Shown here piece by piece: positions 5,878 to 19,891 of a DNA stretch of 23,187 bases. This stretch comes from a virus. The stretch's first letter is position 1. Every line of letters begins with the position of its first letter. The position numbers and the translations under genes are program-made. The notes under the pieces were generated by a model. It was not told the DNA's origin. It searched no databases and was given only the letters and a program-made list of their open reading frames with translations. The stretch lies in UHGV virus genome UHGV-0778869, one strand, 5' to 3'.

Positions 5878-6156
5878 TCAGGCCTCGAAGAATTCGCCGT
5901 TCTTCGGGGCTTTTTCTTTTGTCAGCATTCTGGCTACTTTCTTAGCCAGTTCCGCCAACTCCTCGTCTTCAACACCCCATTCAAGAACAGCAAGAAGCAT
6001 TCCCATTTTGGGGATGAAGCTGTCTTTCCATCGCGAAATTTGCGATTCATTAATCCCTAACGCGTCGGCAACCTTTCGCTGACCACGTACAGCAATTCGA
6101 TTCAGGATGTTGCTTGTAATTGCATTCGCTTTCTTGCGAGTACTTGTAAGTTGCAT
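5878..6156 (-). CDS. cII: CII-like transcriptional activator (P22 C1-like, 92 aa)
   Basis: SQISRWK and MLLAVLEWGV motifs shared with lambda CII; position between cro and O. Confidence 0.85.
   Translation of the reverse strand: MQLTSTRKKANAITSNILNRIAVRGQRKVADALGINESQISRWKDSFIPKMGMLLAVLEWGVEDEELAELAKKVARMLTKEKAPKNGEFFEA
6119..6132 (+). promoter_or_regulatory. Candidate pRE CII-binding site TTGC-N6-TTGC (TTGCTTGTAATTGC)
   Basis: Tandem TTGC tetrads 6 bp apart on the cI-sense strand inside the first codons of the cII-like gene, the lambda pRE arrangement. Confidence 0.6.
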
Positions 6157-6189
6157 ATGTAAGTATTTCCTTAACTAATAAGAAGTTAT

Positions 6190-6207
6190 GCGCATCAACT
6201 TATGCGC
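6190..6207 (-). terminator. Candidate tR1-like hairpin downstream of nutR
   Basis: Minus-strand RNA GCGCAU-AAGUUG-AUGCGC followed by AUAACUUCUUAUUAG; T-run imperfect. Confidence 0.35.
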
Positions 6208-6214
6208 GTTGTAT

Positions 6215-6258
6215 TCCCGCATTTCGGCGGGAATGAGGACCATGACTGTTAAAGAGCG
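6215..6258 (-). promoter_or_regulatory. nutR: boxA CGCTCTTTAACA plus boxB hairpin TCCCGC-CGAAAT-GCGGGA
   Basis: Read on minus strand between cro and cII-like; boxA resembles the E. coli rrn boxA; the identical boxA/boxB pair recurs as nutL. Confidence 0.7.
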
Positions 6259-6264
6259 GTGTTA

Positions 6265-6459
6265 CTATTTGTTTTTCTTGTTGCTTGGGAAAGGACGAAC
6301 TTCCTCTCCAATCACACTGCCATCAGGCTTTACCGTAACCATAATGTTACGGCCTGCCAGAATGGCCTTGCTGATAGCGCACTGGATTACACCAAAGTCA
6401 CTGGCTGCTTTAGCCTGTCCATGGATTTTGGCGTAATCGGCAAGTGTCATTCGAATCAT
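6265..6459 (-). CDS. cro: Cro repressor (lambda Cro fold, 64 aa)
   Basis: ATG 6459 with GGAGAG SD; product ...[41 protein letters not shown] parallels lambda Cro. Confidence 0.85.
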
Positions 6460-6488
6460 ATGCACTCTCCGTTATTAACCATGAACAA

Positions 6489-6559
6489 AGAATACTACAG
6501 GTATTCAAAGCAATCAATACTCAGGGTATTTTTAGTTTGAGTACCTTAGCTATTAGAAT
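6489..6559. promoter_or_regulatory. OR region: three 15-bp operators (6491-6505, 6516-6530, 6540-6554) overlapping divergent pR and pRM
   Basis: AATACTACAGGTATT, AATACTCAGGGTATT, AGTACCTTAGCTATT. pR on minus strand: -35 TTGATT (6517-6512), 17-bp spacer, -10 TATTCT (6494-6489). pRM -10 TAGAAT (6554-6559) would start transcription at the cI ATG. Confidence 0.65.
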
Positions 6560-6565
6560 TAAGCT

Positions 6566-7282
6566 ATGGAAAATAAAAAATCACTGACGACAGAACAGCT
6601 CGAAGACGCTAAGCGGCTTAAGGCTTTGTATGAGTCAAAAAAGAAAGAATTGGGAATAACCCAATACTCAATCGCTGATGAACTGGGTATCACCCAAGGA
6701 GCGGTAGGGCATTATCTTAATGGCAGAAACGCGCTAAACGTTGAGGTCGCATCTGGTTTTGCACGTTTGTTGCAAGTCTCAATTGCTGATTTTAGCCAGT
6801 CAATTGCTGCCAAGGTTGCAGAACAGGCAGAAAGCCTTAAGAGCGATGCCAACGTAAGGTATGCAGGGGAATACAGAGCAGGAAAGAGGTATCCGGTGTT
6901 AAGCAGTATCCAGGCTGGCTCGTGGTGTGAAGCATGCGAACCATACACCATTAAAGACATAGATGTTTGGCTTGAGTCTGACGCGCATATTCAAGGTAAT
7001 GCGTTCTGGCTTAAAGTGGAAGGTGATTCAATGACGGCACCGGTTGGGTTAAGCATTCCAGAGGGAACATTCGTTCTTTTCGATACCGGAAGGGAGGCGA
7101 TCAACGGCAGCTTGGTCATAGCAAAACTTTCTGACTCTAACGAAGCAACATTCAAGAAGCTGATAATCGACGGCGGAAATAAATACCTCAAGGGACTTAA
7201 TCCTGCATGGCCTCTCGTGCCAATCAATGGAAACTGCAAGATTATAGGCGTTGCAATTGAGACAAAACTAAGGCTGGTTTGA
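6566..7282 (+). CDS. cI: CI/C2-type prophage repressor (HTH plus S24 LexA-like autopeptidase, 238 aa)
   Basis: N-terminal HTH (ITQYSIADELGITQGAVGHYLNG); Ala-Gly cleavage site (SIQAGSW), catalytic GDSMTAP and FKKL; C-terminal half close to P22 C2 as recalled. Confidence 0.9.
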   Translation: MENKKSLTTEQLEDAKRLKALYESKKKELGITQYSIADELGITQGAVGHYLNGRNALNVEVASGFARLLQVSIADFSQSIAAKVAEQAESLKSDANVRYAGEYRAGKRYPVLSSIQAGSWCEACEPYTIKDIDVWLESDAHIQGNAFWLKVEGDSMTAPVGLSIPEGTFVLFDTGREAINGSLVIAKLSDSNEATFKKLIIDGGNKYLKGLNPAWPLVPINGNCKIIGVAIETKLRLV

Positions 7283-7299
7283 TCACGCAAGGGGCGATT

Positions 7300-7668
7300 A
7301 TGGTTGGAACCGCTATAGCAAGCTTTTTTGGGATGTTGGCAATCTCGACAATTTACGGCTTAGCGCATGCTTTTATTGCGAAATCTCTATCAGAAAAAAT
7401 AAGCCAGGCTTGGGCGCATAGATCAGCTCGTTTCATGATTCTGGTGATCATAGCAATACAAGGGATATCTGCATTTATCCTCTATGGATCAAGCTTATAC
7501 CTATTGTATCAAGGCGCGACATTTACGCCTTACACCAGTGATTACGGAACTCTATACGATGGTAGTGAAGACATCACTGTGGCTTGGATCGTCTTTGGTT
7601 TATCTATGGCCGTGTCTGTTGTAGCAGACATCATTAAGGTAATTATCGTCTTAACCTTCGCTGACTAA
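7300..7668 (+). CDS. Small polytopic membrane protein (about 122 aa) downstream of cI
   Basis: ATG 7300 with AAGGGG SD (alternative ATG 7279 overlaps the cI stop); three to four hydrophobic helices; same strand as cI. Confidence 0.6.
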   Translation: MVGTAIASFFGMLAISTIYGLAHAFIAKSLSEKISQAWAHRSARFMILVIIAIQGISAFILYGSSLYLLYQGATFTPYTSDYGTLYDGSEDITVAWIVFGLSMAVSVVADIIKVIIVLTFAD

Positions 7669-7754
7669 CCTATAATCCCGGCAGCAATAGCTATCGGGAT
7701 CCACTTCACATATCCCGCATAAAAAGCACTGAACAAGCAGACACCGAAAAAATA

Positions 7755-7841
7755 AATATCCTTTGTATTCATTTGCTTATCATTATTTCACCAAAAATAA
7801 ATACCTTGGGTATTTACACAATAAAATACCTACAGTATTCT
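7755..7841 (+). promoter_or_regulatory. OL region: three 15-bp operators (7755-7769, 7800-7814, 7825-7839) overlapping pL
   Basis: AATATCCTTTGTATT, AATACCTTGGGTATT, AATACCTACAGTATT. pL: -35 TTTACA (7813-7818), 17-bp spacer, -10 TATTCT (7836-7841). Confidence 0.6.
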
Positions 7842-7887
7842 TTAGCCATCAGCAGGACGCTGGAAGCCAAACGGAACAGATTGGCAG

Positions 7888-7928
7888 GCTCTTTAACATT
7901 GATGGGATTGTCCCGCCGAAATGCGGGA
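7888..7928 (+). promoter_or_regulatory. nutL: boxA GCTCTTTAACA (7888-7898) plus boxB hairpin TCCCGC-CGAAAT-GCGGGA (7911-7928)
   Basis: Same boxA/boxB as nutR, downstream of pL and upstream of the N-like gene. Confidence 0.7.
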
Positions 7929-8241
7929 ACCAAAGAGTAGTTGGCTTTGGGGTGACGTGAAGTGCAGCTGCACGACGGCAACCGGAAGATAAGCACCCGG
8001 CGCGCCACCGCCAAAGTCAATTCCATAGGCGTTATGCAGCCGCCACCATATTCAAGAAAGCTGCACAAGAGGTAGGAGGATTTATGTGAATACTTACATT
8101 CAATTGAGAGATTAATTAAATAGAACTGATCGAGCAGAGTCCATAAAGGCTCATAAATGCTCTTCCATCCCCGTCTAATTGGCGGGGAAGGAAACAACTT
8201 TGTAATAAAAAAATTCCAAAGTTGTTTCATCGGAGGTCAAC

Positions 8242-8514
8242 ATGACAGTAGTCATTACATATCTGGCTGACGATAACGCCAGAAATCGCCGCAGAGCACG
8301 CAGACAGGCTCAACGTGAACAGGCAATGCAAGAGCAGCGACTGGCGCGAAAAATTGCGCTAAAGCTCTCTGGTTGCGTCAGAGCAGATAAAGCAGCATCA
8401 CTCGGAAGCCTTCGCTGCAAGAAGGCAGATGAATGCAGTGGAAGTATTTGCCTGCCAAACGTAGCCATTTACTCGGCAGGCTACCGGAAATCAAAACAAC
8501 TGACAGCCAGGTAA
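8242..8514 (+). CDS. N-like transcription antiterminator with arginine-rich motif (P22 gp24-like, 90 aa)
   Basis: GGAGG SD; ARM NARNRRRARRQAQREQA near the N-terminus; C-terminal ...YSAGYRKSKQLTAR resembles P22 gp24 as recalled. Confidence 0.8.
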   Translation: MTVVITYLADDNARNRRRARRQAQREQAMQEQRLARKIALKLSGCVRADKAASLGSLRCKKADECSGSICLPNVAIYSAGYRKSKQLTAR

Positions 8515-8517
8515 GTG

Positions 8518-8742
8518 ATGAATCAGACATACATTCCATCATGCTTGAGAAATCTGCCAAAGCAGAAAGCAAAGCCCCGCAAGCAAGCCATAAAGGACGC
8601 TAAGGCAGAGGTTATTGATCAAGCAATACAATTGCTCAGGGAGGAGTTAAGAAGTGGCAAGCTCGAAGGAATGATGATGCCCTATCAGCGCGGATATCTT
8701 TCGGCGATTAGTAAGCTGGAAGTATTGAAGAGTGAATTATGA
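8518..8742 (+). CDS. Hypothetical protein (74 aa)
   Basis: ATG 8518 after AGGTAAG; MNQTYIPSCLRNLPKQKAKPRKQ...; ATGA overlap with the next gene. No family recognised. Confidence 0.5.
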   Translation: MNQTYIPSCLRNLPKQKAKPRKQAIKDAKAEVIDQAIQLLREELRSGKLEGMMMPYQRGYLSAISKLEVLKSEL

Positions 8743-9431
8743 ACTATCTGGAATTTCCGGATGGTTCATTGTTTTGGCAGCAAACCACTTATTTGAGAGG
8801 AATTAATATGTCATCAATCCGCTTAACTACGAGAATGAAAGAGAAAATCGCTCGTAACGCTTTAATTAAGTCTGGGGTTTTCACTGAGCTTGAAGAAGTA
8901 ACAAAGTTAAAGAGCCAGCTTGCACTTGACGCCAGAGTTATTGCGTTTGGCGGTAAAAAGAAAACTGAGGAAGTGGATCAGTTATCATCCAAGTTAGTAG
9001 CTATAAGTGAAGAACTTGAAAAACTGGGATGTTCATTTTACTCATACGATGTTCGTTCTACTTCAATTTATCTGACTGTATCTGGCAGAAGGGTTGGATG
9101 GCTTTCATATGGGGAAGACGGCAACGGCGAAGATATATTGCTCCCTACTCCGACCAAAGATAAATGCATGTTTGACGCAGAACACGAAATAACAAAAAGG
9201 TTTGATGAAATCTGCGCATTGCAACAAAAACTTGAAGCCAAGAAAAAGGATATCGAATCAAATGTATGGGCTGCTTTGAACTCAGTCACAACAGTTAAGC
9301 GACTTATTGAAGTTTGGTCTGAAAGCAAAGAATTGCTACCAAAAGAAGCAGATAAAGCAAGTACAGCACTTCCTGCTTTACGGGTAGAAGATTTGAATAA
9401 GATGATTGGACTTCCTTCCGAGGCCGCATAG
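8739..9431 (+). CDS. Hypothetical protein (230 aa; alternative start 8808)
   Basis: ORF with coupled start; internal ATG 8808 has a GAGAGG SD; stop lies inside the terminator hairpin. No family recognised. Confidence 0.55.
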   Translation: MNYLEFPDGSLFWQQTTYLRGINMSSIRLTTRMKEKIARNALIKSGVFTELEEVTKLKSQLALDARVIAFGGKKKTEEVDQLSSKLVAISEELEKLGCSFYSYDVRSTSIYLTVSGRRVGWLSYGEDGNGEDILLPTPTKDKCMFDAEHEITKRFDEICALQQKLEAKKKDIESNVWAALNSVTTVKRLIEVWSESKELLPKEADKASTALPALRVEDLNKMIGLPSEAA

Positions 9432-9448
9432 TCGGCCTTTATTTTTGG
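9421..9448 (+). terminator. Intrinsic terminator
   Basis: Stem AGGCCG (9421-9426) / CGGCCT (9433-9438), loop CATAGT, then TTATTTTTGG. Confidence 0.7.
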
Positions 9449-9565
9449 CACTAACAACAGAATAAACACAGCACTGTGTATTCATTCCAACGAGTGAATA
9501 CACGGAGCAATGTCGCTCGTAACTAAACAGGAGCCGACTTGTTCTGATTATTGGAAATCTTCTTT

Positions 9566-9594
9566 GCCCTCCAGTGTGAGGGCAATTTTTTTTG
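9566..9594 (+). terminator. Intrinsic terminator immediately upstream of the next gene's RBS
   Basis: Stem GCCCTC / GAGGGC with loop CAGTGT, then AATTTTTTTTG; GGAGG SD follows at 9597. Confidence 0.7.
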
Positions 9595-9605
9595 ATGGAG
9601 GATAT

Positions 9606-10574
9606 ATGAGTGAAGTAACAGATTTAGTTGTTATTGAAAAAGCAAATGCAATGACTGTATTTCAGTCTGCCGACCAGATTGAAGAAATCCTTCAAAAGGT
9701 TGAACGTGAAGTTATGTCCTTTGTGCCTGATATCACAACGGCAAAGGGCAGAAAGGAGATCGCTTCTCTGGCGTATAAAGTTGCGCAGACGAAAACATAT
9801 CTCGATGGTCTTGGCAAAGACCTTGTTGCTGAACTGAAGGAAATTCCAAAGCTAATTGATGCCAACCGCAAGACAGTGCGTGATCGCCTTGATGAGCTGA
9901 AAGCCAAGGCGCGCCAGCCTCTTACTGATTATGAGGAGGAACAGGCACGGATTAAAGCCGAAGAAGAAGCTAAGGCAGCAGCTGAAGCTCTCGCAAAGCA
10001 AATTGAGTCTGACCATGAAATAGCGATTTTGATGGATCGCGAATTTGACCGCCAAAGAGAAGAGGCAAGACTCAAAGCGGAGCAGGAAAAGCGAGAGCAT
10101 GAAGAACGCTTAAAAAGAGAAGCTGAAGAGAAAGCCAGAGCAGAAGCCGAAGCAAAGGCAAAAGCCGAAATTGAAGCAGCAGCAAGGCGAGAAGCAGAAG
10201 CTAAGGCCGCAGCGGAACGTGCAGAGCGTGAACGTATTGAAGCCGAGCAACGAGCACAGCGCGAAGCAAAAGAGGCAGCAGAACGAGCTGAAAGAGAAAA
10301 GCAGGCGGCAATTGAAGCAGAACGCCGAAAAGCACAGGAGGAGGCTGAACGAATCCGGCGCGAGGCTGAAGCAAAAGAGCAAGCAAGAATAGCAGAAGAA
10401 AAAAGAATCAAGGACGAAGAAGAGCGTAGAGCAAAGGATAAAGCTCACCGGAAAGAAGTAAATAACAAAATACTTGCTGACCTTATCAAGGTTGGCGCAT
10501 CAGAAGATGTTGCTAAAAATATCATAACAGCCATCGTAAAAGGCGAAGTATTCGCAACAAAAATAACCTACTAA
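9606..10574 (+). CDS. Hypothetical protein (322 aa): N-terminal globular domain, long Glu/Ala/Lys/Arg-rich coiled-coil, short C-terminal domain
   Basis: ATG 9606 with GGAGG SD; the low-complexity centre (EAEAKAKAEIEAAARREAEAK...) generates several spurious antisense ORFs; sits upstream of the Sak4-like gene. Confidence 0.7.
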   Translation: MSEVTDLVVIEKANAMTVFQSADQIEEILQKVEREVMSFVPDITTAKGRKEIASLAYKVAQTKTYLDGLGKDLVAELKEIPKLIDANRKTVRDRLDELKAKARQPLTDYEEEQARIKAEEEAKAAAEALAKQIESDHEIAILMDREFDRQREEARLKAEQEKREHEERLKREAEEKARAEAEAKAKAEIEAAARREAEAKAAAERAERERIEAEQRAQREAKEAAERAEREKQAAIEAERRKAQEEAERIRREAEAKEQARIAEEKRIKDEEERRAKDKAHRKEVNNKILADLIKVGASEDVAKNIITAIVKGEVFATKITY

Positions 10575-10598
10575 TAAAACCAACATAAGGAACCACCC

Positions 10599-10745
10599 AT
10601 GATTTACGCAATCGCGGGAGGCGCTCGCATGGGTGCCTTCCAACTAAATGAATCTTTACTTGAACGAATCACCCGTAAATTACGTGACGGATGGAAACGA
10701 CTCATCGACGTACTTAATCAGCCAGGAGTTCCAAAAAATGGATAA
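10599..10745 (+). CDS. Hypothetical small protein (48 aa)
   Basis: ATG 10599 with AAGGA SD 7 nt upstream; MIYAIAGGARMGAFQLNESLLERITRKLRDGWKRLIDVLNQPGVPKNG. Below ORF-track cut-off; found by hand. Confidence 0.4.
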   Translation: MIYAIAGGARMGAFQLNESLLERITRKLRDGWKRLIDVLNQPGVPKNG

Positions 10746-10851
10746 AACACTTATGGCTATCCAGACTAAATTCACTATCGCCGCTTTTATTGGCGATGAA
10801 AAGATGTTTCGTGAGGCCGTCGAAGCCTACAGAAAATGGAGGTCAAAATGA
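10738..10851 (+). CDS. Hypothetical small protein (37 aa)
   Basis: ATG 10738 overlaps the previous ORF end; MDKTLMAIQTKFTIAAFIGDEKMFREAVEAYRKWRSK; the upstream extension of this frame (10648) overlaps the 48-aa ORF. Confidence 0.4.
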   Translation: MDKTLMAIQTKFTIAAFIGDEKMFREAVEAYRKWRSK

Positions 10852-11036
10852 TTCCGGTAGAACTGGCGAAAACTCCAGAGTTAAGTCGATTAAAAAGAGA
10901 ATATCACATTGCTGAGGCTCGTTACTGGCGTAAAGCGGGAGATAAATCAAAGAAACAACTTTGCTTATGGCAGGCACAAAGAGAGCGCATGAATGAGCGT
11001 GAGTTTCTTTCCTCCCCATCCGAATTACCATTCTGA
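10848..11036 (+). CDS. Hypothetical small protein (62 aa)
   Basis: ATG 10848 with GGAGG SD and ATGA overlap with the previous ORF; MIPVELAKTPELSRLKREYHIAEARYWRKAGDKSKKQL... Confidence 0.5.
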   Translation: MIPVELAKTPELSRLKREYHIAEARYWRKAGDKSKKQLCLWQAQRERMNEREFLSSPSELPF

Positions 11037-11044
11037 GGCAAATT

Positions 11045-11746
11045 ATGGGAACTGCGACATTAATACTCGGTGAATCTGGCACCGGAAAATCAACCAGCAT
11101 GAGAAATATCAATCCAGAGGAAGCAATACTTATAAAACCAATAGGCAAGCAGCTTCCATTTAAATCAAAAGACTGGCTGGCATGGGATGCCAGAGCAAAA
11201 AAAGGAACCGTAGTTACCACTGACAAATGGGACGTAATAGTTGCCGTAATTAAGCGTGCTCACGAATACGGGAAAAGAATCGTTATTGTTGATGACTTCC
11301 AGTATGTGATGAGCAATGAGTTTATGCGCCGCTCAGAAGAAAAATCGTTTGATAAATTCACTGAGATAGGCCGCCACGCATGGGAGGTGATTAAGGCTGC
11401 ACAGGATGCACCTGATGACCTGAGAGTCTATTTTCTTGCGCACACCGAAGAAACCCCTATGGGGCGTGTGAAAATGAAGACTATCGGCAAAATGCTGGAC
11501 GAGAAAATCACTGTCGAAGGCATGTTTACTATAGTTCTTCGCACCCTTACCCGCGATGACCAGTTCTTTTTCACCACGAAAACAACGGTGCAGACACTGT
11601 TAAATCCCCAATGGGAATGTTTGATTCTAATGAGATTGATAACGATCTCTCTTTCGTCGATGCCACTGTTTGTGATTACTACGGCATCAATAATGTTCAT
11701 CAAATTAAGGAAAACGCCGCATGAGCAACGTGATTTTTACTTATAA
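11045..11746 (+). CDS. Sak4-like RecA-fold ATPase (AAA_24-type), probably frameshifted near 11560-11590; intact-frame end would be 11724
   Basis: Walker A GESGTGKST, Walker B IVIVDDF. After ...DQFFFTTK the in-frame tail looks non-protein-like, while the -1 frame reads NNGADTVKSPMGMFDSNEIDNDLSFVDATVCDYYGINNVHQIKENAA and ends in a stop that overlaps the next ATG. Confidence 0.7.
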   Translation: MGTATLILGESGTGKSTSMRNINPEEAILIKPIGKQLPFKSKDWLAWDARAKKGTVVTTDKWDVIVAVIKRAHEYGKRIVIVDDFQYVMSNEFMRRSEEKSFDKFTEIGRHAWEVIKAAQDAPDDLRVYFLAHTEETPMGRVKMKTIGKMLDEKITVEGMFTIVLRTLTRDDQFFFTTKTTVQTLLNPQWECLILMRLITISLSSMPLFVITTASIMFIKLRKTPHEQRDFYL

Positions 11747-12308
11747 CGAAGAAGCAGCACTGACCGCAGGGCAAGGTGGTTTTATTAACGAAACTGGTGC
11801 TCATATCATTACCATTACTGAAGCAGAACTAAAGCAATCAGAAAAAGGAGCCAAATTTATTGAGTTTTCTGGCGAATCTGACGACGGACGTAAAATCCAA
11901 TATCTTAGCGTCTGTGTTCAGAAAAATGACGGAACGGAAAACAAATTTGGCGCAAATGTCGTTCACGCCATGATGGGGTGTGCCGGGATTGGACAATTAA
12001 CGCAACATATGGTTTCCGCCAGTAAATTTGTTGCTCCTGAGTTTCATGGAAAGAAAATCGGGTTAGTGCTCCAGAAAGTATTAACCACAAACAAAAAGAC
12101 TGGCGCAGACAGCTACCAGATGGAAATACGCATCCCGTTTATTGCACAAACAGGTCAAACCCTTAAAGAAAAGGCGGAAGGCAAGCAACCAGAAACTATC
12201 GCCAACATGGTTGCCAGCCTCAAAGATAAAGACAATCGCTCTAAAAACGTAAGCCAGAATCATGCAGATGATTATGGTTACAGCCAGAACGATTACCCTC
12301 CTTTCTGA
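11721..12308 (+). CDS. Putative ssDNA-binding partner of the Sak4-like ATPase (195 aa)
   Basis: Immediately downstream of the ATPase; acidic C-terminal tail ending ...DDYGYSQNDYPPF, reminiscent of SSB tips (E. coli SSB ends DDDIPF). OB fold not verifiable by eye. Confidence 0.5.
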   Translation: MSNVIFTYNEEAALTAGQGGFINETGAHIITITEAELKQSEKGAKFIEFSGESDDGRKIQYLSVCVQKNDGTENKFGANVVHAMMGCAGIGQLTQHMVSASKFVAPEFHGKKIGLVLQKVLTTNKKTGADSYQMEIRIPFIAQTGQTLKEKAEGKQPETIANMVASLKDKDNRSKNVSQNHADDYGYSQNDYPPF

Positions 12309-12331
12309 TTATTGAAAATAAGGCTCCCATT

Positions 12332-12628
12332 ATGCCAGCGCCTCTGTATGGTGCGGATGACCCGCGCAATTGCTCCGGTAGCTCCAAGGCGGAGGTGCTG
12401 GAAAATATCAAAAACAATTTCGACGCGTTTCTTGCTCTGACACCAGAAACAAAAGCAGAACGGATGTACCGACGCGATATACAACTCGCGCTAAAACAGG
12501 AGAAGGACCGAACAAACGAAACAGCAATGAGACCGTTGCGAAAAGCGACAATAGACAAATTCCCTGAATATATCGACCCGCGCCTGCGTAATTACCGATC
12601 ACGCTATGGCGCTATCAGTAATGACTGA
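12332..12628 (+). CDS. Hypothetical protein (98 aa)
   Basis: ORF with weak AAGG SD; [34 protein letters not shown]...; no family recognised. Confidence 0.45.
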
Positions 12629-12638
12629 GGAATTTACC

Positions 12639-12803
12639 ATGAGAGGACTTGCATACAATCCCGGCATTCTTCAGGCAGAAATGATTATTCGCCAACGCGT
12701 AAAGCCAATGCCATCGAGAGAGGAATTACTTAAGAGAAATAGTTTCGGTTCTGTTAATGACAACAAATATCTGAATGCGATGTGGCGGAGTGGGAAGAAA
12801 TGA
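12639..12803 (+). CDS. Hypothetical small protein (54 aa)
   Basis: ATG 12639 with GAGGA SD 8 nt upstream; [34 protein letters not shown]... Confidence 0.45.
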
Positions 12804-13231
12804 AACAAATGTCACTAATTGAGATGGATGGATTTCTGAAAGGTAAATGCATCCCACGAGATTTAAAGGTTAACGAAACAAACGCTGAATATCTGGTGCG
12901 TAAGTTCGGTGAACTTGAATCAAAACTAGAAACGGCGTTGCGGGAGTGTCGTTCTGCTGGAATCACGATTGATAACCTTGAGGCTAAATGCGCGAAGATG
13001 GCTGCTGAAAATACCTCACTTAAGCAATCTGAGAAGGAATTTAATGACTTTTGTCGTGAGGAGTTTAGCGAATGGGAAGATGATGTTACTGAAACCCCAG
13101 CCACCGATGCTTTTCTGGCTGAAGTACGGGCGCAGGGGGTAGAGATGTTTGCTGACCATCTGTTGTGCCCAGACCTTGATGACACTATCCGTGACTTTGC
13201 TTCCCAGCTTCGCAAAGGAGGCAACCAATGA
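12800..13231 (+). CDS. Hypothetical acidic protein (143 aa)
   Basis: ATG 12800 overlapping the previous stop (ATGA), GGAG SD; predicted helical/coiled-coil. Confidence 0.55.
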
Positions 13232-13845
13232 GCGAGATTGACTATCAGGCATTGCGTGCTAAGGCAGAAAAAGCAACGTGTGGCGAGTGGTCGCTCGAAT
13301 ATGGAGAGGGCCGATTTGATGGTGATGATGCGCTAATTCATCGCGAGGCTGCTGGATATCTTCCCATTTGCAGAATTGAAGGAGCGCATCCTGAAAGCGG
13401 TTTCGATGAAGATTTCCAAATGGAACAGCAGGCCAATGCTGAATTCATCGCCGCAGCCAATCCGGCTACCGTCTTGGCGCTGCTTGGCGAGCTGGAAGCA
13501 GCAGAGAACAACCTTATTGATAGTGAATGCCATGTTGCTGAACTGGAAGAAGCGCTACGCGATAAGCAGGCGTTACTTGAAGCATCAGAAAAGCGCATAG
13601 CAGAACTGGAAGCCGAACTCGTAAGCCAAACTTACAAGTTGAACGAGCTATCGGGCAACTCTCCGGTAACTCCGGATGGTTGGGTTGTAGTGCCGAAGGA
13701 GTTAACACCGGAAATGATGAGAGCCGTTCAGATTAGAAGTGAGCTTGGAGGGTATGCCACTTCCAATCTATCTGGTGCATACAATATGTTTTCTGAGTTC
13801 TGGAATGTTGCTGTCTCAGCTGCGCCTAAGGTGGATGATTTATGA
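13228..13845 (+). CDS. Ead/Ea22-like protein (205 aa)
   Basis: Strong AAAGGAGG SD; N-terminus [22 protein letters not shown]... and central coiled coil resemble the Ead/Ea22-like family of lambdoid prophages as recalled. Confidence 0.55.
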   Translation: MSEIDYQALRAKAEKATCGEWSLEYGEGRFDGDDALIHREAAGYLPICRIEGAHPESGFDEDFQMEQQANAEFIAAANPATVLALLGELEAAENNLIDSECHVAELEEALRDKQALLEASEKRIAELEAELVSQTYKLNELSGNSPVTPDGWVVVPKELTPEMMRAVQIRSELGGYATSNLSGAYNMFSEFWNVAVSAAPKVDDL

Positions 13846-13991
13846 ATCTATATCGCTGCCCATTCTGTGGTTCCACTGTGCTTAACATCGGATACTCATT
13901 CAGTATCAGAGGGAAAATGCGCTATGTGTCATGCAAATGTGGTGCCCAAGGACCAGAAAAACGAACTAGATCTGAAGCGATTTCTTCATGA
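13842..13991 (+). CDS. Small zinc-ribbon protein, Lar-like (restriction alleviation family) candidate (49 aa)
   Basis: MNLYRCPFCGSTVLNIGYSFSIRGKMRYVSCKCGAQGPEKRTRSEAISS; CPFCG...CKCG motif; ATGA overlap with the upstream gene. Found by hand. Confidence 0.45.
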   Translation: MNLYRCPFCGSTVLNIGYSFSIRGKMRYVSCKCGAQGPEKRTRSEAISS

Positions 13992-14000
13992 AATAGTCGA

Positions 14001-14138
14001 ATGAAAGTATGGGTTTATGATCCAGAAACAATATTAAACGTTGAAGAGCGCAGGAGAACAGAAGTCTATATTCATAACCTTAATGAAGATGGATTTACAC
14101 CAGTGCTCGTAAAGGCTACTCCGCAGGAGGTGAAGTGA
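14001..14138 (+). CDS. Hypothetical small protein (45 aa), weakly supported
   Basis: ATG 14001, no clear SD; MKVWVYDPETILNVEERRRTEVYIHNLNEDGFTPVLVKATPQEVK. Confidence 0.25.
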   Translation: MKVWVYDPETILNVEERRRTEVYIHNLNEDGFTPVLVKATPQEVK

Positions 14139-14416
14139 TGGACTCCTTCGCGAAATATACGATTATTGACTGGATAGCATTCCTTCAGGTTTTGCTCATC
14201 TGGTTTTATATGGCTTACAGGAGTGGACAGTGGATTGTCAGTGTAGCCTGTAGCAGGGGATGGCGTTGGTGGAACCGAAAGAATAAAAAAGCACTGGCAT
14301 TGGATTCGTTTTACGAAGCATTCAATCTTAACAGTCTTCAGCCTGGTTCTGTCATTGTAGTCACCACTCAAAGCGGCATGACCATTCAGATTCATAAACC
14401 AAAAGAGGAAAAATGA
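14138..14416 (+). CDS. Small membrane protein (92 aa) with one N-terminal transmembrane helix
   Basis: ATG 14138 with AGGAGG SD; hydrophobic IIDWIAFLQVLLIWFYMAY then basic stretch RGWRWWNRKNKK. Confidence 0.55.
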   Translation: MDSFAKYTIIDWIAFLQVLLIWFYMAYRSGQWIVSVACSRGWRWWNRKNKKALALDSFYEAFNLNSLQPGSVIVVTTQSGMTIQIHKPKEEK

Positions 14417-14502
14417 TGTGGCCTATATGTGTTAATTGCGGACGGATGTGCCTATCTGGATGGTGCCGAAAGTGCGACAAATGCACGAAGAAAAGACAAT
14501 AA
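14413..14502 (+). CDS. Cys-rich mini-protein (29 aa), zinc-ribbon-like
   Basis: AGAGGA SD; MMWPICVNCGRMCLSGWCRKCDKCTKKRQ; start overlaps the upstream stop. Confidence 0.3.
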   Translation: MMWPICVNCGRMCLSGWCRKCDKCTKKRQ

Positions 14503-14536
14503 CAATCCTCGCACTCGCGGGGATTTCTTTTATCTG

Positions 14537-14563
14537 AACTCGCTAGGGCGAGTTTTGTTTTAT
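14537..14563 (+). terminator. Intrinsic terminator
   Basis: Stem AACTCGC / GCGAGTT with loop TAGG, then TTGTTTTAT; the next gene's SD follows. Confidence 0.7.
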
Positions 14564-14574
14564 GGAGACAAGAA

Positions 14575-14919
14575 ATGTCAGATTTGGCTATGAAGGTTTT
14601 GAAATGGCAATCGACTGGCGATGTTGGCATTAGTAGCGCAACTCTTGCCTCAATCGCATGTGGACTGGAAAAGAATATCTATGGTCATCACTTCGGCGCT
14701 CCCCATGACGCAGCAGACTTCCGGCGATGCGTTGCACTTGTTGAGCAGATTCCAGAAATCAGAGATTCATTCGACAAGGTTGCAAAGCGCGTTCCGGCAT
14801 TCAAAGGCATCCTCACCGAATGGGATTCCCTCGTTGCTCTGTTGAAGTCTGAAATGAAGATACACCGAAACAAAGCACCAGAGACTTACAGAAGAATTAG
14901 CGAGTTACGCAAGGACTAA
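14575..14919 (+). CDS. Hypothetical protein (114 aa)
   Basis: ATG 14575 with GGAGA SD; MSDLAMKVLKWQSTGDVGISSATLASIACGLEKNIYGHHFGAPHDAADFRR...; no family recognised. Confidence 0.55.
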   Translation: MSDLAMKVLKWQSTGDVGISSATLASIACGLEKNIYGHHFGAPHDAADFRRCVALVEQIPEIRDSFDKVAKRVPAFKGILTEWDSLVALLKSEMKIHRNKAPETYRRISELRKD

Positions 14920-14977
14920 CCACAGCCTAACACTCGATGAGGCCAGTTCATTTCTCAAGATATCCAGACATACCATC

Positions 14978-15001
14978 GCCGCATCAATGCGGCTTTTTCT
15001 T
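14978..15001 (+). terminator. Intrinsic terminator upstream of xis
   Basis: Stem GCCGCA / TGCGGC with loop TCAA, then TTTTTCTT. Confidence 0.6.
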
Positions 15002-15013
15002 GCGTGTAATTGC
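15000..15013 (+). promoter_or_regulatory. Candidate pI CII-binding site TTGC-N6-TTGC (TTGCGTGTAATTGC)
   Basis: Same motif as at pRE; sits just 5' of the xis ATG so that a dependent transcript would start inside xis, as for lambda pI. Confidence 0.6.
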
Positions 15014-15025: not shown

Positions 15026-15244
15026 ATGTACTTGACACTTCAGGAGTGGAACGCTCGCCAGCGACGCCCAAGAAGCCTTGAAACAGTTCGTCGATGGGTG
15101 CGCGAGTGCAGGATATTCCCTCCTCCGGTTAAGGATGGAAGAGAGTATCTGTTCCACGAATCAGCGGTAAAGGTTGACTTAAATCGACCAGTAACAGGTA
15201 GCCTTTTGAAGAGGATCAGAAATGGGAAGAAGGCGAAGTCATGA
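15026..15244 (+). CDS. xis: Excisionase Xis (72 aa)
   Basis: MYLTLQEWNARQRRPRSLETVRRWVRECRIFPPPVKDGREYLFHESAVKVDLNRPVTGSLLKRIRNGKKAKS matches lambda Xis as recalled; overlaps int by 23 nt. Confidence 0.95.
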   Translation: MYLTLQEWNARQRRPRSLETVRRWVRECRIFPPPVKDGREYLFHESAVKVDLNRPVTGSLLKRIRNGKKAKS

Positions 15245-16292
15245 GCGCCGGGATTTACCCCCTAACCTTTATATAAGAAACAATGGATATTACTGCTACA
15301 GGGACCCAAGGACGGGTAAAGAGTTTGGATTAGGCAGAGACAGGAGGATAGCAATCACTGAAGCTATACAGGCCAACATTGAGTTATTTTCAGGACACAA
15401 ACACAAGCCTCTGACAGCGAGAATCAACAGTGATAATTCTGTTACGTTACATTCATGGCTTGATCGCTACGAAAAAATACTCGCCAGCAGAGGAATCAAG
15501 CAGAAGACACTCATAAATTACATGAGCAAAATTAAAGCAATAAGGAGGGGTCTGCCTGATGCTCCACTTGAAGACATCACCACAAAAGAAATTGCGGCAA
15601 TGCTCAATGGATATATAGACGATGGCAAGGCGGCGTCAGCCAAGTTAATCAGATCAACACTGAGCGATGCATTCCGAGAGGCAATAGCTGAAGGCCATAT
15701 AACAACAAACCCGGTCGCTGCCACTCGCGCAGCAAAATCAGAGGTAAGGAGATCAAGGCTTACGGCTGACGAATACCTGAAAATTTATCAAGCAGCAGAA
15801 TCATCACCATGTTGGCTCAGACTTGCAATGGAACTGGCTGTTGTTACCGGGCAGCGAGTTGGTGATTTATGCGAAATGAAGTGGTCTGATATCGTAGATG
15901 GATATCTTTATGTCGAGCAAAGCAAAACAGGCGTAAAAATTGCCATCCCAACAGCATTGCATGTTGATGCCCTCGGGATATCAATGAAGGAAACACTTGA
16001 TAAATGCAAAGAGATTCTTGGCGGAGAAACCATAATTGCATCTACTCGTCGTGAACCGCTTTCATCCGGCACAGTATCAAGGTATTTTATGCGCGCACGA
16101 AAAGCATCAGGTCTTTCCTTCGAAGGGGATCCGCCTACCTTTCACGAGTTGCGCAGTTTGTCTGCAAGACTCTATGAGAAGCAGATAAGCGATAAGTTTG
16201 CTCAACATCTTCTCGGGCATAAGTCGGACACCATGGCATCACAGTATCGTGATGACAGAGGCAGGGAGTGGGACAAAATTGAAATCAAATAA
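15222..16292 (+). CDS. int: Tyrosine integrase, lambda Int type (356 aa)
   Basis: MGRRRSHERRDLPPNLYIRNNGYYCYRDPRTGKEFGLGRDRRIAITEA... ...HELRSLSARLYEKQ...LLGHKSDTMASQYRDD: essentially lambda Int as recalled, with the R-H-R-Y catalytic region. Confidence 0.95.
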   Translation: MGRRRSHERRDLPPNLYIRNNGYYCYRDPRTGKEFGLGRDRRIAITEAIQANIELFSGHKHKPLTARINSDNSVTLHSWLDRYEKILASRGIKQKTLINYMSKIKAIRRGLPDAPLEDITTKEIAAMLNGYIDDGKAASAKLIRSTLSDAFREAIAEGHITTNPVAATRAAKSEVRRSRLTADEYLKIYQAAESSPCWLRLAMELAVVTGQRVGDLCEMKWSDIVDGYLYVEQSKTGVKIAIPTALHVDALGISMKETLDKCKEILGGETIIASTRREPLSSGTVSRYFMRARKASGLSFEGDPPTFHELRSLSARLYEKQISDKFAQHLLGHKSDTMASQYRDDRGREWDKIEIK

Positions 16293-16540
16293 TGATTTTA
16301 TTTTGACTGATAGTGACCTGTTCGTTGCAACAAATTGATAAGCAATGCTTTTTTATAATGCCAACTTAGTATAAAAAAGCTGAACGTGAAACATTAAAAA
16401 TCATTAATATCAATGCATTACAATATCTTTAGTCTAAAAAATAGACTACATAATGCGACAAAACACAACATATCCAGTCACTATGAATCAACCACTTAGA
16501 TGGTATTAGTGACCTGTAACAGAGCATTAGCGCAAGGTGA
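16293..16540. other. attP: P' arm, 15-bp core (16366-16380, reverse complement of GCTTTTTTATACTAA) and P arm
   Basis: P' arm and core match lambda attP as recalled; the P arm (16476-16525) is similar to lambda's but diverged. Confidence 0.85.
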
Positions 16541-16543
16541 TTT

Positions 16544-16584
16544 TTGTCTTCTTGCGCTAATTTTTTGTCAACATACTGGGTTAT
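16544..16584 (+). terminator. sib / tI-like hairpin terminator downstream of attP
   Basis: Stem TTAGCGCAAG / CTTGCGCTAA (10 bp), 14-nt loop, then TTTTTTG; matches the lambda sib/tI region as recalled. Confidence 0.75.
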
Positions 16585-16781
16585 CTGAATTTACAACCAT
16601 GCTCAGTATCTCGATAAGCGCAGAGAAATGATGCAGTGGTGGGCGGACTGGCTTGATGAAAAGGTGGAGTGATCCACCTTTACCATTATCGAAGAGAACA
16701 AAGCCTTGCAAGCCAATGCAAAGCTTTGTGTGTCCCGTTTTTGTCTCAACATAGCCTTAGATATAGACAACGCAATCACTT

Positions 16782-18848
16782 TTATTGGAATGAAATACTG
16801 CACTCCATTTCAGTTGGTGACCCTGTATTGCTGTACGTTACAATAGTCCATGAGGTTGCAGATACCTTGTTTACGACCATGTATCTCCCAGTTCCTGGTG
16901 ACGTAAATGTATATCCTGCAGTCGACATGTCTGTCGGAAATGTTATCACCCAAACACCAGGTGATGTTTTGGATGCTAAGCATCCAACTGCTGATAACAG
17001 AACTCCTGAGCTATTTATATTTACAACACATGGTGAGTTTATAATCTTAACAACACCTGTATCAAGTATGTATGTATCAAACACTTTACCTATTCTGTTG
17101 CCATTTAGGTATGTAACTGCTGTTGCTGACAATCCAGCCCTGTTCCTTAAAACAGTTGAAACTCCAAGCCCTGAGCAATTAGTTACTTGCTGATCTGATA
17201 CCATTCCTGAAGTTGAACTAAATTGCTCCATAATTGCATCAACGGTATTTGACCCATTAAAGCAGTTGAATGAAACGTTCTCTAACTTATTCCTTCTCAC
17301 TGACTTTCCTGAGTCAGATCTAACGTTGCAGATTCTGTTGTACTGCCCTGGAGTGTTTATTTGTACAAATCCACCTCTTATCTTGTTGTCAAGACAGTCT
17401 GTTAATGATTCGCTATGGTCGTATAAATCATACGCTCTTTTAAAATCACCATTATTATTCATGAAGATTAAAACATCTTCTATGAGATTGTTACTACAAC
17501 CTTGAATAGCTATCACGCTATCATTACCATTAAAAGCACCATTTGCGATACTGGTAAATTTACCGCCAACAATCTTGCAGTTAGTGCATCCGCGTGAGAA
17601 CTTAATGTTATTGTTACCACCTATAGCGCCATCGACATTCCCAAGAACTGATGAATTATGAATTCCTTCACAGTTTATGAACTGAAAATCAGTAGTAGGA
17701 AATCCAATACCGTCAGCAGAAGTAGCATGATAATTAACAAGCAGCCCGTTTTCTGCGTATCCTCCCTGAACAAACCCACCCTTAACTCCAAGTATCTCCA
17801 TGTTACCACCGGCCTTAGATTGTCCTATAAACCTTGGCATGGTTATCTCAGGGTCAATAGCGCCGATAACGACAAAGTTACCATGGTTAGCTCCCTTATG
17901 ACCGGTTCCATCAAAGGTGCATCTAATGGCCCTTATCTTTGATCGTCTAGTTGAATCAGCAGATCCGTAAGAAGTATTTCCCATTCTTAATGGCGTCACA
18001 TCTGAATCACCATTGAAATACAGATCTCTTACTTCTATATTATTCCCTGTTAATTCTATTGCACCAAAGCTCTTATTAAACAATGATCCTGTCAAAGTTA
18101 TTCTAGCCTGATTGATGGCTAATATTTTTTTATTGTCAAGGCTTGATATTACGTTATTTGTTATTTTTACATTTATATCTATGTAAATCTCATCAAAATA
18201 TATTAACAACATACTGATTAGTGATGTTATATCACTGTCAGGTGATGTCCAGTCGCTAATTTTTGTGCTTCTAGACCGTGTTCTTTTTTCAAGATAACAA
18301 GTTACCCCGCCAATCACTGCGGAGTTTTGACTCAATGACGATATTGTTCCGCTTGCTGGAGGTGATATATAAAATAATCCAAATTCAGTGTGAATATCTG
18401 TTGTACCAACAGGAATAATATCTCCAACCTTTGCCGTAGCTCTTACATCATTAGGGAATACAACCCCTGGCAATATTTCGTCACGCATTTCATTGACGTA
18501 TACTCTTAACTGGTCAGGGTCATACTTCAACACATTAGGAAAATAGAACTGCTGCGCACCATATGCATCATAAACAGCCATCGAATGACCTTGCACGGTA
18601 ACGAATTTGGCAATCTGTCCGTTATATACCGGGTAACCAGCAGCGTTAATGATGATTGGTTGCGAAACAGGAACGTGAGAACCGTCTTCGTTCTCCACAT
18701 AAACCTGAATCTGGTTTTCAGGATTTACCGGATCCGTGTCAATTTTACCGATATAAATTTTGCCATTGGCTACGGCTTTAAAAGAACGAGCCATAGTGAA
18801 GAGTTGCGAAGGCATGCTTACCACAACATTTGCGGTGATATCTGACAT
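16782..18848 (-). CDS. Tailspike protein: P22-type N-terminal head-binding domain fused to a distinct beta-helix receptor-binding domain (about 688 aa)
   Basis: ATG 18848 with GGAG SD; N-terminus [43 protein letters not shown]...NVLKYDPDQ parallels P22 gp9 residues 1-110; the rest is Gly/Asn-rich repeats typical of right-handed beta-helix depolymerases and unlike P22 gp9. Confidence 0.85.
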
Positions 18849-18969
18849 TTCATTGCTCCAGACGAATGATATGATGCAACCATGATGTGATTGCATACCG
18901 AAATGGTACTATTGAGTATTTATCCAGTAGGTTACGATGCCATTCCACCCAACTGGTGAGGCATCAAGG

Positions 18970-19236
18970 ATGTACAGCAAATACGACGAGGCGCAGTTTC
19001 ACTTGAGACTTCCGCATGAACTCCACGCGAAAATTAAGCAGCGTGCGAAGATGAATAACAGGTCGCTGAACTCAGAGATAATTGCAGCGATTGAAGAATC
19101 ATTGGCTAAACAAAGCTCTGCATCTGTTTACATTGACGATGCAGAGCGTATGGCAGAACAACAATCTGAGATGGTTAAGAAAATTGTCTTTGATACGCTT
19201 AAGACCATGTATAGCAATAATAAAAAGGAAACATAG
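18970..19236 (+). CDS. mnt: Mnt-like ribbon-helix-helix repressor (about 88 aa)
   Basis: AQFHLRLPHELHAKIKQRAKMNNRSLNSEIIAAIEESL ... DAERMAEQQSEMVKKIVFDTLK parallels P22 Mnt as recalled; start uncertain (ATG 18970 or 18937). Confidence 0.75.
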   Translation: MYSKYDEAQFHLRLPHELHAKIKQRAKMNNRSLNSEIIAAIEESLAKQSSASVYIDDAERMAEQQSEMVKKIVFDTLKTMYSNNKKET

Positions 19237-19306
19237 AAATCTAGTTTCCGGCTAAAATGGCATTGCCTTCATGATATCCTGTGAAAAACTAAGGAGAGTT
19301 AACCAT

Positions 19307-19792
19307 ATGAAAAAGTCACTGTTAATTATCCCGCTTCTGCTGGTTGGATGCGCAAAAGTAAGTGACTATCAAGCAAGTTGCGAACAACGCTATCAAAAGC
19401 TTAGCGATATGGCTAATTGCCTTGATGCCAGTGTGAAGAACGACTCACGCATGGCATCAGCACCAACACCTAAGCTGTATGTCCTTGCTGCAAAGATGCT
19501 CGGGCAAAGTGTCGATGAAGGCAAGATAAGTGACGCACAGGCAAGACTTGAGCTTCAGAATCTTTATGTTCAATTACAAAGCCAAGAACAAGCCCAACAA
19601 ATAGCACAAAGCCAAGCATTCCAGCAGGCTTTATTGAATTATCAGGCTGTAAACACAATGCAAGCGATCGAGCAAAAAGCGAGACAGCCTGTTATAACTC
19701 AACCCTATCCAACACGAGTTGACACTTACACAAACTGCAATTCAGGATTTGGAAACACGGTAACATGCAACAGTAGCAGTAGCATCAGATAA
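19307..19792 (+). CDS. Lipoprotein (161 aa) with Gln-rich mature domain
   Basis: AAGGAGAG SD; signal peptide MKKSLLIIPLLLVGC with lipobox LVGC; located between mnt and the ejection-protein gene. Confidence 0.7.
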   Translation: MKKSLLIIPLLLVGCAKVSDYQASCEQRYQKLSDMANCLDASVKNDSRMASAPTPKLYVLAAKMLGQSVDEGKISDAQARLELQNLYVQLQSQEQAQQIAQSQAFQQALLNYQAVNTMQAIEQKARQPVITQPYPTRVDTYTNCNSGFGNTVTCNSSSSIR

Positions 19793-19813
19793 CAATCAGC
19801 AAAGGTATCGCCT

Positions 19814-19891
19814 ATGCAGAGGGATACGATAAACCTCGCGTTCTACATATTTGGTTTTTGCACGTTCCTGGTGTTTGAAAGGCTATTCTGA
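19814..19891 (+). CDS. Candidate hydrophobic mini-peptide (25 aa), weakly supported
   Basis: MQRDTINLAFYIFGFCTFLVFERLF; weak SD; 3' end overlaps the convergent ejection-protein gene. Confidence 0.2.
   Translation: MQRDTINLAFYIFGFCTFLVFERLF

What the first reader, a model, noticed from the sequence alone, without database searches (positions are those of the whole stretch)
6119..15013. Two CII-type TTGC-N6-TTGC sites placed as in lambda pRE and pI
TTGCTTGTAATTGC lies inside the first codons of the cII-like gene on the cI-sense strand (6119-6132), and TTGCGTGTAATTGC lies just 5' of xis (15000-15013). This reproduces the lambda logic of CII-activated repressor establishment and int-without-xis expression, here with a P22 C1-like activator and a lambda-type int module. 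The pI site overlaps the T-tract of the terminator at 14978-15001.
Basis: partly seen in the sequence, partly recalled or inferred. Interest (0 to 1): 0.4.

Follow-up and report, generated by a model that had tools for sequence, protein, structure and literature searches.

The report
Known CII-activated promoters; pRE site mis-assigned

Summary
Both 14-mers exist. TTGCGTGTAATTGC is at 15000-15013 as stated. TTGCTTGTAATTGC is at 6110-6123, not 6119-6132.

The int-side site is lambda pI itself. From the terminator T-tract into xis codon 4 it is base-identical in lambda, 434, HK022 and an Stx1a phage. It has the usual hexamer (TGTACT) 13 nt downstream and a hairpin terminator just upstream.

The repressor-side assignment is wrong in detail. 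The site homologous to lambda pRE is TTGCGAGTACTTGT at 6134-6147, which is nt 10-23 of the c1/cII-like gene. It has AAGTAT at 6161-6166 in the same register as lambda pRE, pI and paQ and P22 pRE and Pa23. GenBank records of P22, Sf6, HK620 and HK244 annotate that position as the C1/CII site, and 12 of 13 cII homologues compared (besides the window) carry a site there.

It reads CTGC in P22 and is absent from the other cII lineages. About 9% of synonymous recodings of the protein produce it by chance, so its function is unproven.

The motif is not enriched in the window (4 found, 2.0 expected). The activator is a Phage_CII protein and a cIII homologue is present. Overall this is a known system in an ordinary lambdoid mosaic.

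The parts
5878..6156 (-). c1/cII-like activator gene (92 aa)
   Evidence: Pfam Phage_CII PF05269, E 1.8e-42, full length. 86% aa identity to P22 C1, 100% to HK244/HK542 CII, 53% to lambda CII. Recognition-helix segment SQISRWK is identical to lambda CII, PDB 1xwr/1zs4.
6134..6147 (+). Proximal C1/CII site TTGCGAGTACTTGT, the homologue of the lambda/P22 pRE activator site (gene nt 10-23)
   Evidence: The same gene position is annotated as the C1/CII binding site in P22 BK000583, Sf6, HK620, HK244 and mEp213. A site at nt 10-23 or 13-26 is present in 12 of the 13 other homologues compared. The tetramers are invariant in 119/119 IMG/VR alleles.
6161..6166 (+). pRE -10-like hexamer AAGTAT, 13 nt after the proximal site
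   Evidence: Same register (+27 from the first T) as lambda pRE AAGTAT, pI TGTACT, paQ TAGTAT, P22 pRE GAACAT and Pa23 TAGTAT. HK244 annotates it as minus_10_signal.
6110..6123 (+).
   Evidence: The hexamer in register is CGAGTA. It reads CTGCTGGTAATTGC in P22/ES18 and is absent from lambda-, ST64T-, Yersinia-, Klebsiella- and Erwinia-type cII genes. It is perfect in 98/119 and CTGC in 21/119 IMG/VR alleles. 8.9% of synonymous recodings produce it.
6265..6465 (-). cro, crossed antisense by the pRE transcript
   Evidence: Pfam Cro PF09048, E 3.6e-26.
6566..7282 (+). cI-type repressor, the target of pRE
   Evidence: Pfam HTH_3 + Peptidase_S24. 99.7% nt identity to the mEpX2 immunity region and 98.5% to HK620.
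5880..5912 (+). oop-like terminator on the cI-sense strand at the 3' end of c1
   Evidence: Terminator scan: 14-pair stem plus T-tract. P22 annotates the oop terminator at the equivalent place.
10599..10745 (+). cIII homologue (about 48 codons; stop six codons earlier than in lambda)
14978..15001 (+). Intrinsic terminator immediately upstream of, and 2 nt overlapping, the pI site
   Evidence: Lambda has a hairpin of different sequence at the same place (dG -13.0), so the structure is conserved. The 434 record annotates a terminator here.
15000..15013 (+). pI CII site TTGCGTGTAATTGC
   Evidence: Identical in lambda, 434, HK022 and an Stx1a phage. The 434 record annotates 'pI promoter; CII-controlled' at this position.
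15027..15032 (+). pI -10-like hexamer TGTACT, overlapping the xis start codon
   Evidence: Register +27, identical to lambda.
15026..15244 (+). xis
   Evidence: Pfam Exc PF07825, E 3.9e-41.
15222..16292 (+). lambda-type integrase
   Evidence: Pfam Arm-DNA-bind_1 + Phage_integrase. 97.7% nt identity to 434 int-xis.
16366..16380 (-). attP core GCTTTTTTATACTAA
   Evidence: Read directly from the sequence. It aligns to the annotated 434 attP core.
16526..16568 (+). tI/sib-type terminator downstream of attP
   Evidence: Identical to the 434 segment annotated as a terminator. Hairpin read from the sequence.

Best explanation
The window carries two of the three classic CII-dependent promoters of lambdoid phages, served by a P22/HK620-type C1 (CII-family) activator.

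After infection, rightward transcription (the - strand here) makes cro and c1. C1 is presumably protected by the cIII product. It binds the direct repeat TTGC-N6-TTG(C/T) that straddles a poor -35 and recruits RNA polymerase.

(1) pRE. The site is at 6134-6147 and the -10 hexamer AAGTAT at 6161-6166. The start is inferred about 6-7 nt further on, near 6173. The transcript runs on the + strand, antisense through the c1 ribosome-binding site and cro, into cI (6566-7282).

(2) pI. The site is at 15000-15013 and the -10 hexamer TGTACT at 15027-15032. The start is inferred near 15039, inside xis, so the message encodes Int but not Xis. It should end at the tI terminator beyond attP. The hairpin terminator at 14978-15001 insulates pI from non-antiterminated upstream transcription.

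The perfect motif at 6110-6123 is most likely incidental, or at most an auxiliary site; it is not the pRE activator site.

Shown here: the sequences, their register, conservation and homology, and family membership of the activator. Inferred from lambda/P22 knowledge: C1 binding, transcription start points, and the Int-without-Xis outcome.
For: - Activator: Phage_CII hit at E 1.8e-42, and the recognition helix matches lambda CII of PDB 1xwr/1zs4.
- Annotation of the proximal site: its position equals the annotated C1/CII site in P22, Sf6, HK620, HK244 and mEp213.
- Conservation of the proximal site: the position holds in 12 of 13 other homologues, down to 44% aa identity. The tetramers are invariant in 119/119 metagenomic alleles while neighbouring synonymous positions vary.
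- Register: a hexamer ending in T starts 27 nt after the first T in all five reference promoters and in the window's proximal and pI sites.
- pI: this region is base-identical to lambda, 434, HK022 and an Stx1a phage, and the 434 record annotates it as CII-controlled pI.
- Activator dependence: neither promoter is found by a sigma-70 consensus scan, as expected for activator-dependent promoters.
- Accessory parts: a cIII homologue is present. attP core and tI are conserved.
Against: - There is no experimental data for this phage.
- The primary P22 C1 papers (Ho et al. 1992; Mondal et al. 2015) could not be read here, so the annotated P22 site is taken from GenBank records rather than from the footprint itself.
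- The proximal site is imperfect (TTGT in the second repeat), while a perfect site lies 24 bp away on the same strand. A perfect site within +/-50 nt by chance has a genome-background probability of about 0.004.
- The two degenerate third-codon positions inside the distal tetramers are also invariant across alleles, so some function of the distal site is not excluded.
Confidence: 0.85

Rival explanations
1. One reading: the perfect TTGCTTGTAATTGC at 6110-6123 is the CII site of pRE, positioned as in lambda.
For: It is a perfect consensus on the correct strand inside the 5' part of the cII-like gene. It is 13/14 identical to the pI site. It is present in 98/119 alleles of this c1 type.
Against: It lies at gene nt 34-47, whereas lambda and all other homologues with a site have it at nt 10-23 or 13-26. 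The hexamer in register is CGAGTA, with neither A at position 2 nor T at position 6. In P22 and ES18 it is CTGC.... No GenBank record annotates it, and four records with the same or nearly the same sequence annotate the proximal site instead.
Confidence: 0.04
2. Tandem-site architecture: both 6110-6123 and 6134-6147 bind C1 tetramers. The distal one would act as an auxiliary element that sharpens the response to C1 concentration, adds a roadblock to rightward transcription, or drives a weak second start near 6149.
For: Two same-strand sites lie 24 bp apart, and a perfect site this close is unlikely on genome background (about 0.004; derived). All four degenerate third-codon positions inside the four tetramers are invariant, while 9 of 19 third positions in the first 20 codons vary among alleles (hypergeometric p about 0.05). 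A third lineage (L149) also has a perfect distal site with a different spacer.
Against: The distal site is absent or imperfect in P22/ES18 and in all other cII lineages. The 24-bp centre-to-centre spacing is off helical phase. There is no in-register -10 hexamer. 8.9% of synonymous recodings create it by chance. Close relatives show no variation, so selection cannot be measured.
Confidence: 0.11

Closest known systems
Lambda pI (CII-activated int promoter)
   Same: The sequence is identical from the terminator T-tract through the CII site, the -10 hexamer and xis codons 1-4. It has the same position relative to xis/int, the attP core and tI.
   Different: The upstream hairpin stem has the 434/HK022 sequence rather than lambda's, although the structure is conserved. 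The activator is a P22/HK620-type C1, 53% identical to lambda CII.
P22 pRE with its C1 site, and the equivalent annotated pRE of HK620, HK244 and Sf6
   Same: TTGC-N6-TTGT at nt 10-23 of c1, on the antisense strand, with a hexamer 13 nt downstream. The window's 6100-6170 is identical to HK244, HK620 and Sf6.
   Different: Against P22 itself, the spacer differs by one base (GAGTAC vs GAGTGC) and the -10 is AAGTAT (lambda-like) instead of GAACAT. The extra upstream motif is perfect here and CTGC in P22.
Lambda pRE
   Same: Same gene position (nt 10-23 of cII), the same -10 hexamer AAGTAT, and an identical sequence from CATATGTAAGTATTTCCTTA onward.
   Different: The second repeat is TTGT rather than TTGC, and the N6 spacer differs. 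An additional perfect motif lies 24 bp upstream that lambda lacks.
Lambda paQ / P22 Pa23 (third CII/C1-dependent promoter)
   Same: Same motif and register.
   Different: It cannot be assessed. The window ends in ninH/ninI and the Q/23 gene lies outside it.

Membership tests
CII/C1-dependent promoter class (lambda pRE, pI, paQ; P22 pRE, Pa23) | Direct repeat TTGC-N6-TTG(C/T) straddling the -35 region | tested here: met
   Met at 6134-6147, 15000-15013 and 6110-6123.
CII/C1-dependent promoter class (lambda pRE, pI, paQ; P22 pRE, Pa23) | A -10-like hexamer ending in T that starts 27 nt after the first T of the repeat | tested here: met
   AAGTAT for 6134 and TGTACT for 15000, in the same register as all five reference promoters. 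Not met for 6110-6123, where the hexamer is CGAGTA.
CII/C1-dependent promoter class (lambda pRE, pI, paQ; P22 pRE, Pa23) | Conserved placement: pRE at nt 10-23 of cII on the antisense strand facing cI; pI at the xis start | tested here: met
CII/C1-dependent promoter class (lambda pRE, pI, paQ; P22 pRE, Pa23) | No functional sigma-70 consensus promoter without the activator (poor -35) | tested here: inconclusive
   The consensus scan finds no promoter at either place. This is consistent with the feature, but a pattern scan is not a functional test.
CII/C1-dependent promoter class (lambda pRE, pI, paQ; P22 pRE, Pa23) | Transcription depends on the CII/C1 protein; footprint over the repeat | not testable with these tools
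   Needs in vitro transcription, footprinting or reporter fusions.
Phage_CII activator family (PF05269) | Full-length match to the family profile above the curated cut-off | tested here: met
   143.9 bits against a cut-off of 21.3, covering residues 1-91 of 91 profile positions.
Phage_CII activator family (PF05269) | Conserved HTH recognition helix that reads TTGC | tested here: met
   SQISRWK is identical to lambda CII in the alignment to PDB 1xwr/1zs4. Specificity itself is inferred.
Lambda-type Int/Xis site-specific recombination module | Arm-binding plus catalytic integrase domains, an Exc-family Xis overlapping int, the lambda attP core and a downstream tI/sib hairpin | tested here: met
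   Pfam. Core GCTTTTTTATACTAA at 16366-16380. tI is identical to 434.

The most novel reading that the evidence does not exclude
In the HK620/Sf6/mEpX2-type c1 allele, pRE has evolved a two-site architecture. A perfect C1 site at about -63 to -50 and the canonical TTGC-N6-TTGT site at about -39 to -26 would both be occupied. This would alter the dose-response of repressor establishment, or add an antisense start or roadblock inside c1, relative to lambda and P22.
Probability: 0.12. Interest if true: 0.3.

Novelty: already known. Interest (0 to 1): 0.1.

Why it matters
It matters little beyond annotation. The finding confirms that this mosaic P22-like phage uses the standard CII/CIII lysogeny-establishment circuit. 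It fixes the correct pRE coordinates (6134-6147 with 6161-6166, not 6110-6123 or 6119-6132). The practical lesson is that the best consensus match is not necessarily the functional site; register with the -10 hexamer and positional conservation across diverged homologues decide. The only open point is whether the neighbouring perfect motif, common in E. coli/Shigella P22-like phages, does anything. That is a small question, easily tested with synonymous mutations.

Tried and rejected
- **Motif enrichment:** TTGC-N6-TTGC (4 vs 2.04) and TTGY-N6-TTGY (9 vs 6.2) are not enriched, so counting motifs gives no support.
- **Close relatives:** 80 IMG/VR relatives of the c1 gene showed no variation at all across 6100-6160. 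They were useless for measuring constraint, so I switched to diverged homologues and a back-translated pattern scan.
- **Motifs at 16698-16721 (- strand):** these form TTGC-N6-TTGC-N6-TTGT and are labelled 'CII binding site' by pattern in the 434 record. I considered them a possible third CII target and rejected that. They are the arms and loop of a 13-bp terminator hairpin found in 157 phage records, including lambda, P22 and L, where it is annotated as a terminator. No -10 hexamer is in register.
- **Site at 8569-8582 (- strand):** there is no supporting context, and the in-register hexamer AGATTT lacks A at position 2. I treated it as chance.
- **paQ/Pa23 equivalent:** not testable, because the Q gene lies beyond the window's left end.
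- **Literature:** Ho et al. 1992 (JBC), Mondal et al. 2015 (PMC4601593) and PMID 6305007 are not held. One held paper's statement of the P22 site as 'TTTCN6TTGT' (PMC12111858) does not match the P22 sequence, which reads TTGCGAGTGCTTGT.
- **Sigma-70 consensus scans:** they find neither promoter. This is expected and not informative about activator dependence.
Full report
**Observation**

The two 14-mers exist. TTGCGTGTAATTGC is at 15000-15013 on the + strand, as stated.

The motif is not over-represented in the window:
- TTGC-N6-TTGC occurs four times against 2.04 expected, and 14 of 100 shuffles reach four.
- The relaxed TTGY-N6-TTGY occurs nine times against 6.2 expected.

Any significance must therefore come from placement and homology.

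**Context**

The window is part of a P22-like (Lederbergvirus-type) mosaic phage genome, not a prophage with host flank.
- Region 16782-23187 encodes tailspike and DNA-ejection proteins.
- No phage record covers more than 49% of the window, and no E. coli genome covers more than 48%.

On the - strand lie these genes:
- cro (6265..6465; Pfam Cro).
- A c1/cII-like gene (5878..6156; Pfam Phage_CII, E 1.8e-42).
- An O-like gene and a DnaB-type helicase gene.

On the + strand lie these genes:
- A cI-type repressor (6566..7282).
- N (8242..8514).
- A cIII homologue (10599..10745), followed by kil and recombination genes.
- xis (15026..15244) and a lambda-type int (15222..16292).
- The lambda attP core (16366-16380) and a tI-type terminator (16526-16568).

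The immunity region is 99.7% identical to phage mEpX2 and 98.5% to HK620. The int-xis region is 97.7% identical to phage 434.

The activator is 86% identical to P22 C1 and 53% to lambda CII. It shares the recognition-helix segment SQISRWK with lambda CII, whose structure is solved (1xwr, 1zs4).

**The pI site**

From the T-tract through the CII repeat, the hexamer TGTACT and xis codons 1-4, the window is base-for-base identical to lambda, 434, HK022 and an Stx1a phage. The 434 GenBank record annotates exactly this as 'pI promoter; CII-controlled', with a terminator just upstream.

The terminator is confirmed:
- Stem 14978-14993 and T-tract to 15001, with dG -10.5 and z -3.3.
- Lambda has a hairpin of different sequence at the same place, so the structure rather than the sequence is conserved.
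- The overlap with the pI site is 2 nt.

From established lambda knowledge (my recollection of the annotated lambda sequence, not a tool result), pI starts about 13 nt inside xis. That would be about 15039 here, giving int without xis.

**The pRE site**

I tabulated the five reference promoters: lambda pRE, pI and paQ, and P22 pRE and Pa23. The P22 sites are as annotated in BK000583. In every one, a hexamer ending in T starts 27 nt after the first T of the repeat: AAGTAT, TGTACT, TAGTAT, GAACAT and TAGTAT.

In the window this register is met by two sites:
- TTGCGAGTACTTGT at 6134-6147, followed by AAGTAT at 6161-6166.
- The pI site.

The 6134-6147 site occupies nt 10-23 of the c1 gene. That gene position is annotated as the C1/CII binding site of pRE in several records:
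- P22, Sf6, HK244 and mEp213; HK244 also marks the -35 and -10 signals.
- HK620 annotates the first 24 nt of cII as the binding site, which contains nt 10-23.

I compared 13 cII/c1 homologues besides the window, down to 44% amino-acid identity. They include lambda, P22, ES18, ST64T, mEp043, and Yersinia, Klebsiella and Erwinia phages. A TTGC-N6-TTGY site sits at nt 10-23, or at nt 13-26 where the protein has one extra codon, in all but one.

A second site at nt 34-47 occurs only in the HK620/Sf6/HK244/HK140/Stx2c allele. P22 and ES18 read CTGCTGGTAATTGC there.

**Is the distal perfect motif functional?**

A back-translated pattern scan of IMG/VR returned 119 alleles of this N-terminus, of which 25 are distinct.
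- The proximal tetramers are invariant in all 119.
- The distal motif is perfect in 98 and CTGC in 21.
- One further lineage has a perfect distal motif with a different spacer.

Evidence on selection is weak in both directions.
- The third-codon positions inside all four tetramers never vary, while 9 of 19 third positions in the first 20 codons do. This gives a hypergeometric p of about 0.05 for all four, but only about 0.26 for the distal pair alone.
- Recoding the first 25 codons at random with the window's codon usage produces the distal perfect site in 8.9% of trials and the proximal one in 3.6%.
- Close relatives carry no variation there.

The distal motif is therefore not demonstrably more than a by-product of coding Ala-Ile-Thr-Ser-Asn, though an auxiliary role is not excluded. 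Its centre lies 24 bp upstream of the proximal site, off helical phase, at about -63 to -50 relative to the inferred start.

**Mechanism (shown versus inferred)**

Shown here:
- The anatomy, the register, positional conservation and identity to characterised promoters.
- Family membership of the activator.
- Presence of cIII, the upstream terminator, attP and tI.

Inferred from lambda and P22 biology:
- C1 binds the repeats and activates pRE (start about 6173, reading antisense through cro into cI).
- C1 activates pI (start about 15039, Int without Xis, ending at tI).

Not testable here:
- C1 dependence of either promoter.
- The third promoter (paQ/Pa23), because the window ends in ninH/ninI upstream of the Q gene.

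**Comparison and novelty**

This is the known CII regulon. The pairing of this c1 allele with a lambda/434-type int-xis module already exists in sequenced phages, such as Huey, HK630 and IME10. Nothing here is new in kind. The useful result is the corrected pRE coordinates and the demotion of the perfect motif to 'unproven neighbour'.

**Side results**

- *Motifs near attP.* The other two perfect motif hits are not CII sites.
  - Region 16698-16721 (- strand) forms a TTGY triple repeat, but it is a 13-bp terminator hairpin. The block is conserved in 157 phage records, including lambda, P22 and L.
  - Site 8569-8582 has no supporting context.
- *oop.* An oop-type terminator lies at 5880-5912.
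- *ninI.* The phosphatase gene carries a 1-nt deletion in a homopolymer relative to all 13 relatives that cover it.
- *cIII.* The homologue has a stop six codons earlier than lambda's.

**Limits**

The primary P22 C1 biochemistry (Ho et al. 1992; Mondal et al. 2015) and the paper cited for the 434 terminator (PMID 6305007) are not in the held library. The 'known' P22 site therefore rests on curated GenBank annotation and on conservation, not on my reading of the footprints.

Noticed in passing
window 16698-16731 (- strand): TTGC-N6-TTGC-N6-TTGT triple repeat just downstream of the tailspike ORF. It is the stem and loop of a 13-bp hairpin terminator (dG -21.8). The ~40-nt block is conserved in 157 phage records with different integrases, including lambda 27473-27510, 434, P22, ST64T and L. 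The 434 record labels it 'CII binding site' by pattern only, while phage L labels it a terminator.
   Followed up: yes
window ~58-60 (- strand gene, left end): The ninI (Ser/Thr phosphatase) reading frame is broken by a 1-nt deletion in a homopolymer: TT here against TTT in all 13 related loci that cover it. The frame stops at 44-46. This is either a pseudogene or a sequencing error.
   Followed up: partly
window 10599-10745 (+): A cIII homologue 78.6% identical to lambda CIII, with a stop codon six residues before the lambda C-terminus. It is shorter than 50 aa, so the ORF list missed it. It overlaps the start of the kil ORF.
   Followed up: partly
window 5880-5912 (+): Strong terminator-like hairpin (14 pairs plus a T-tract) on the cI-sense strand inside the 3' end of c1. 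This is the position of the oop antisense RNA terminator annotated in P22.
   Followed up: partly
window 1-23187: The window is a continuous phage genome segment: nin region, replication genes, immunity region, early-left genes, int, attP, tailspike and ejection proteins. The attP is intact and there is no host DNA. It is a new mosaic of known modules: the best phage record covers 49% (Sf6) and the best E. coli genome 48%.
   Followed up: partly
window 7814-8230 (-): A 138-aa ORF on the opposite strand between the cI-hkaS block and N. Its only match is a weak hit to an unknown-function PHROG (phrog_6589). It may be a moron or exclusion gene.
   Followed up: no
window 6110-6156 (+): CTTGTAATTGCAT (6112-6124) and CTTGTAAGTTGCAT (6143-6156) are near-repeats. 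The TTGY tetramers in this 47-nt stretch start at 6110, 6114, 6120, 6134, 6144 and 6151. This local density makes extra consensus matches easy to generate.
   Followed up: no
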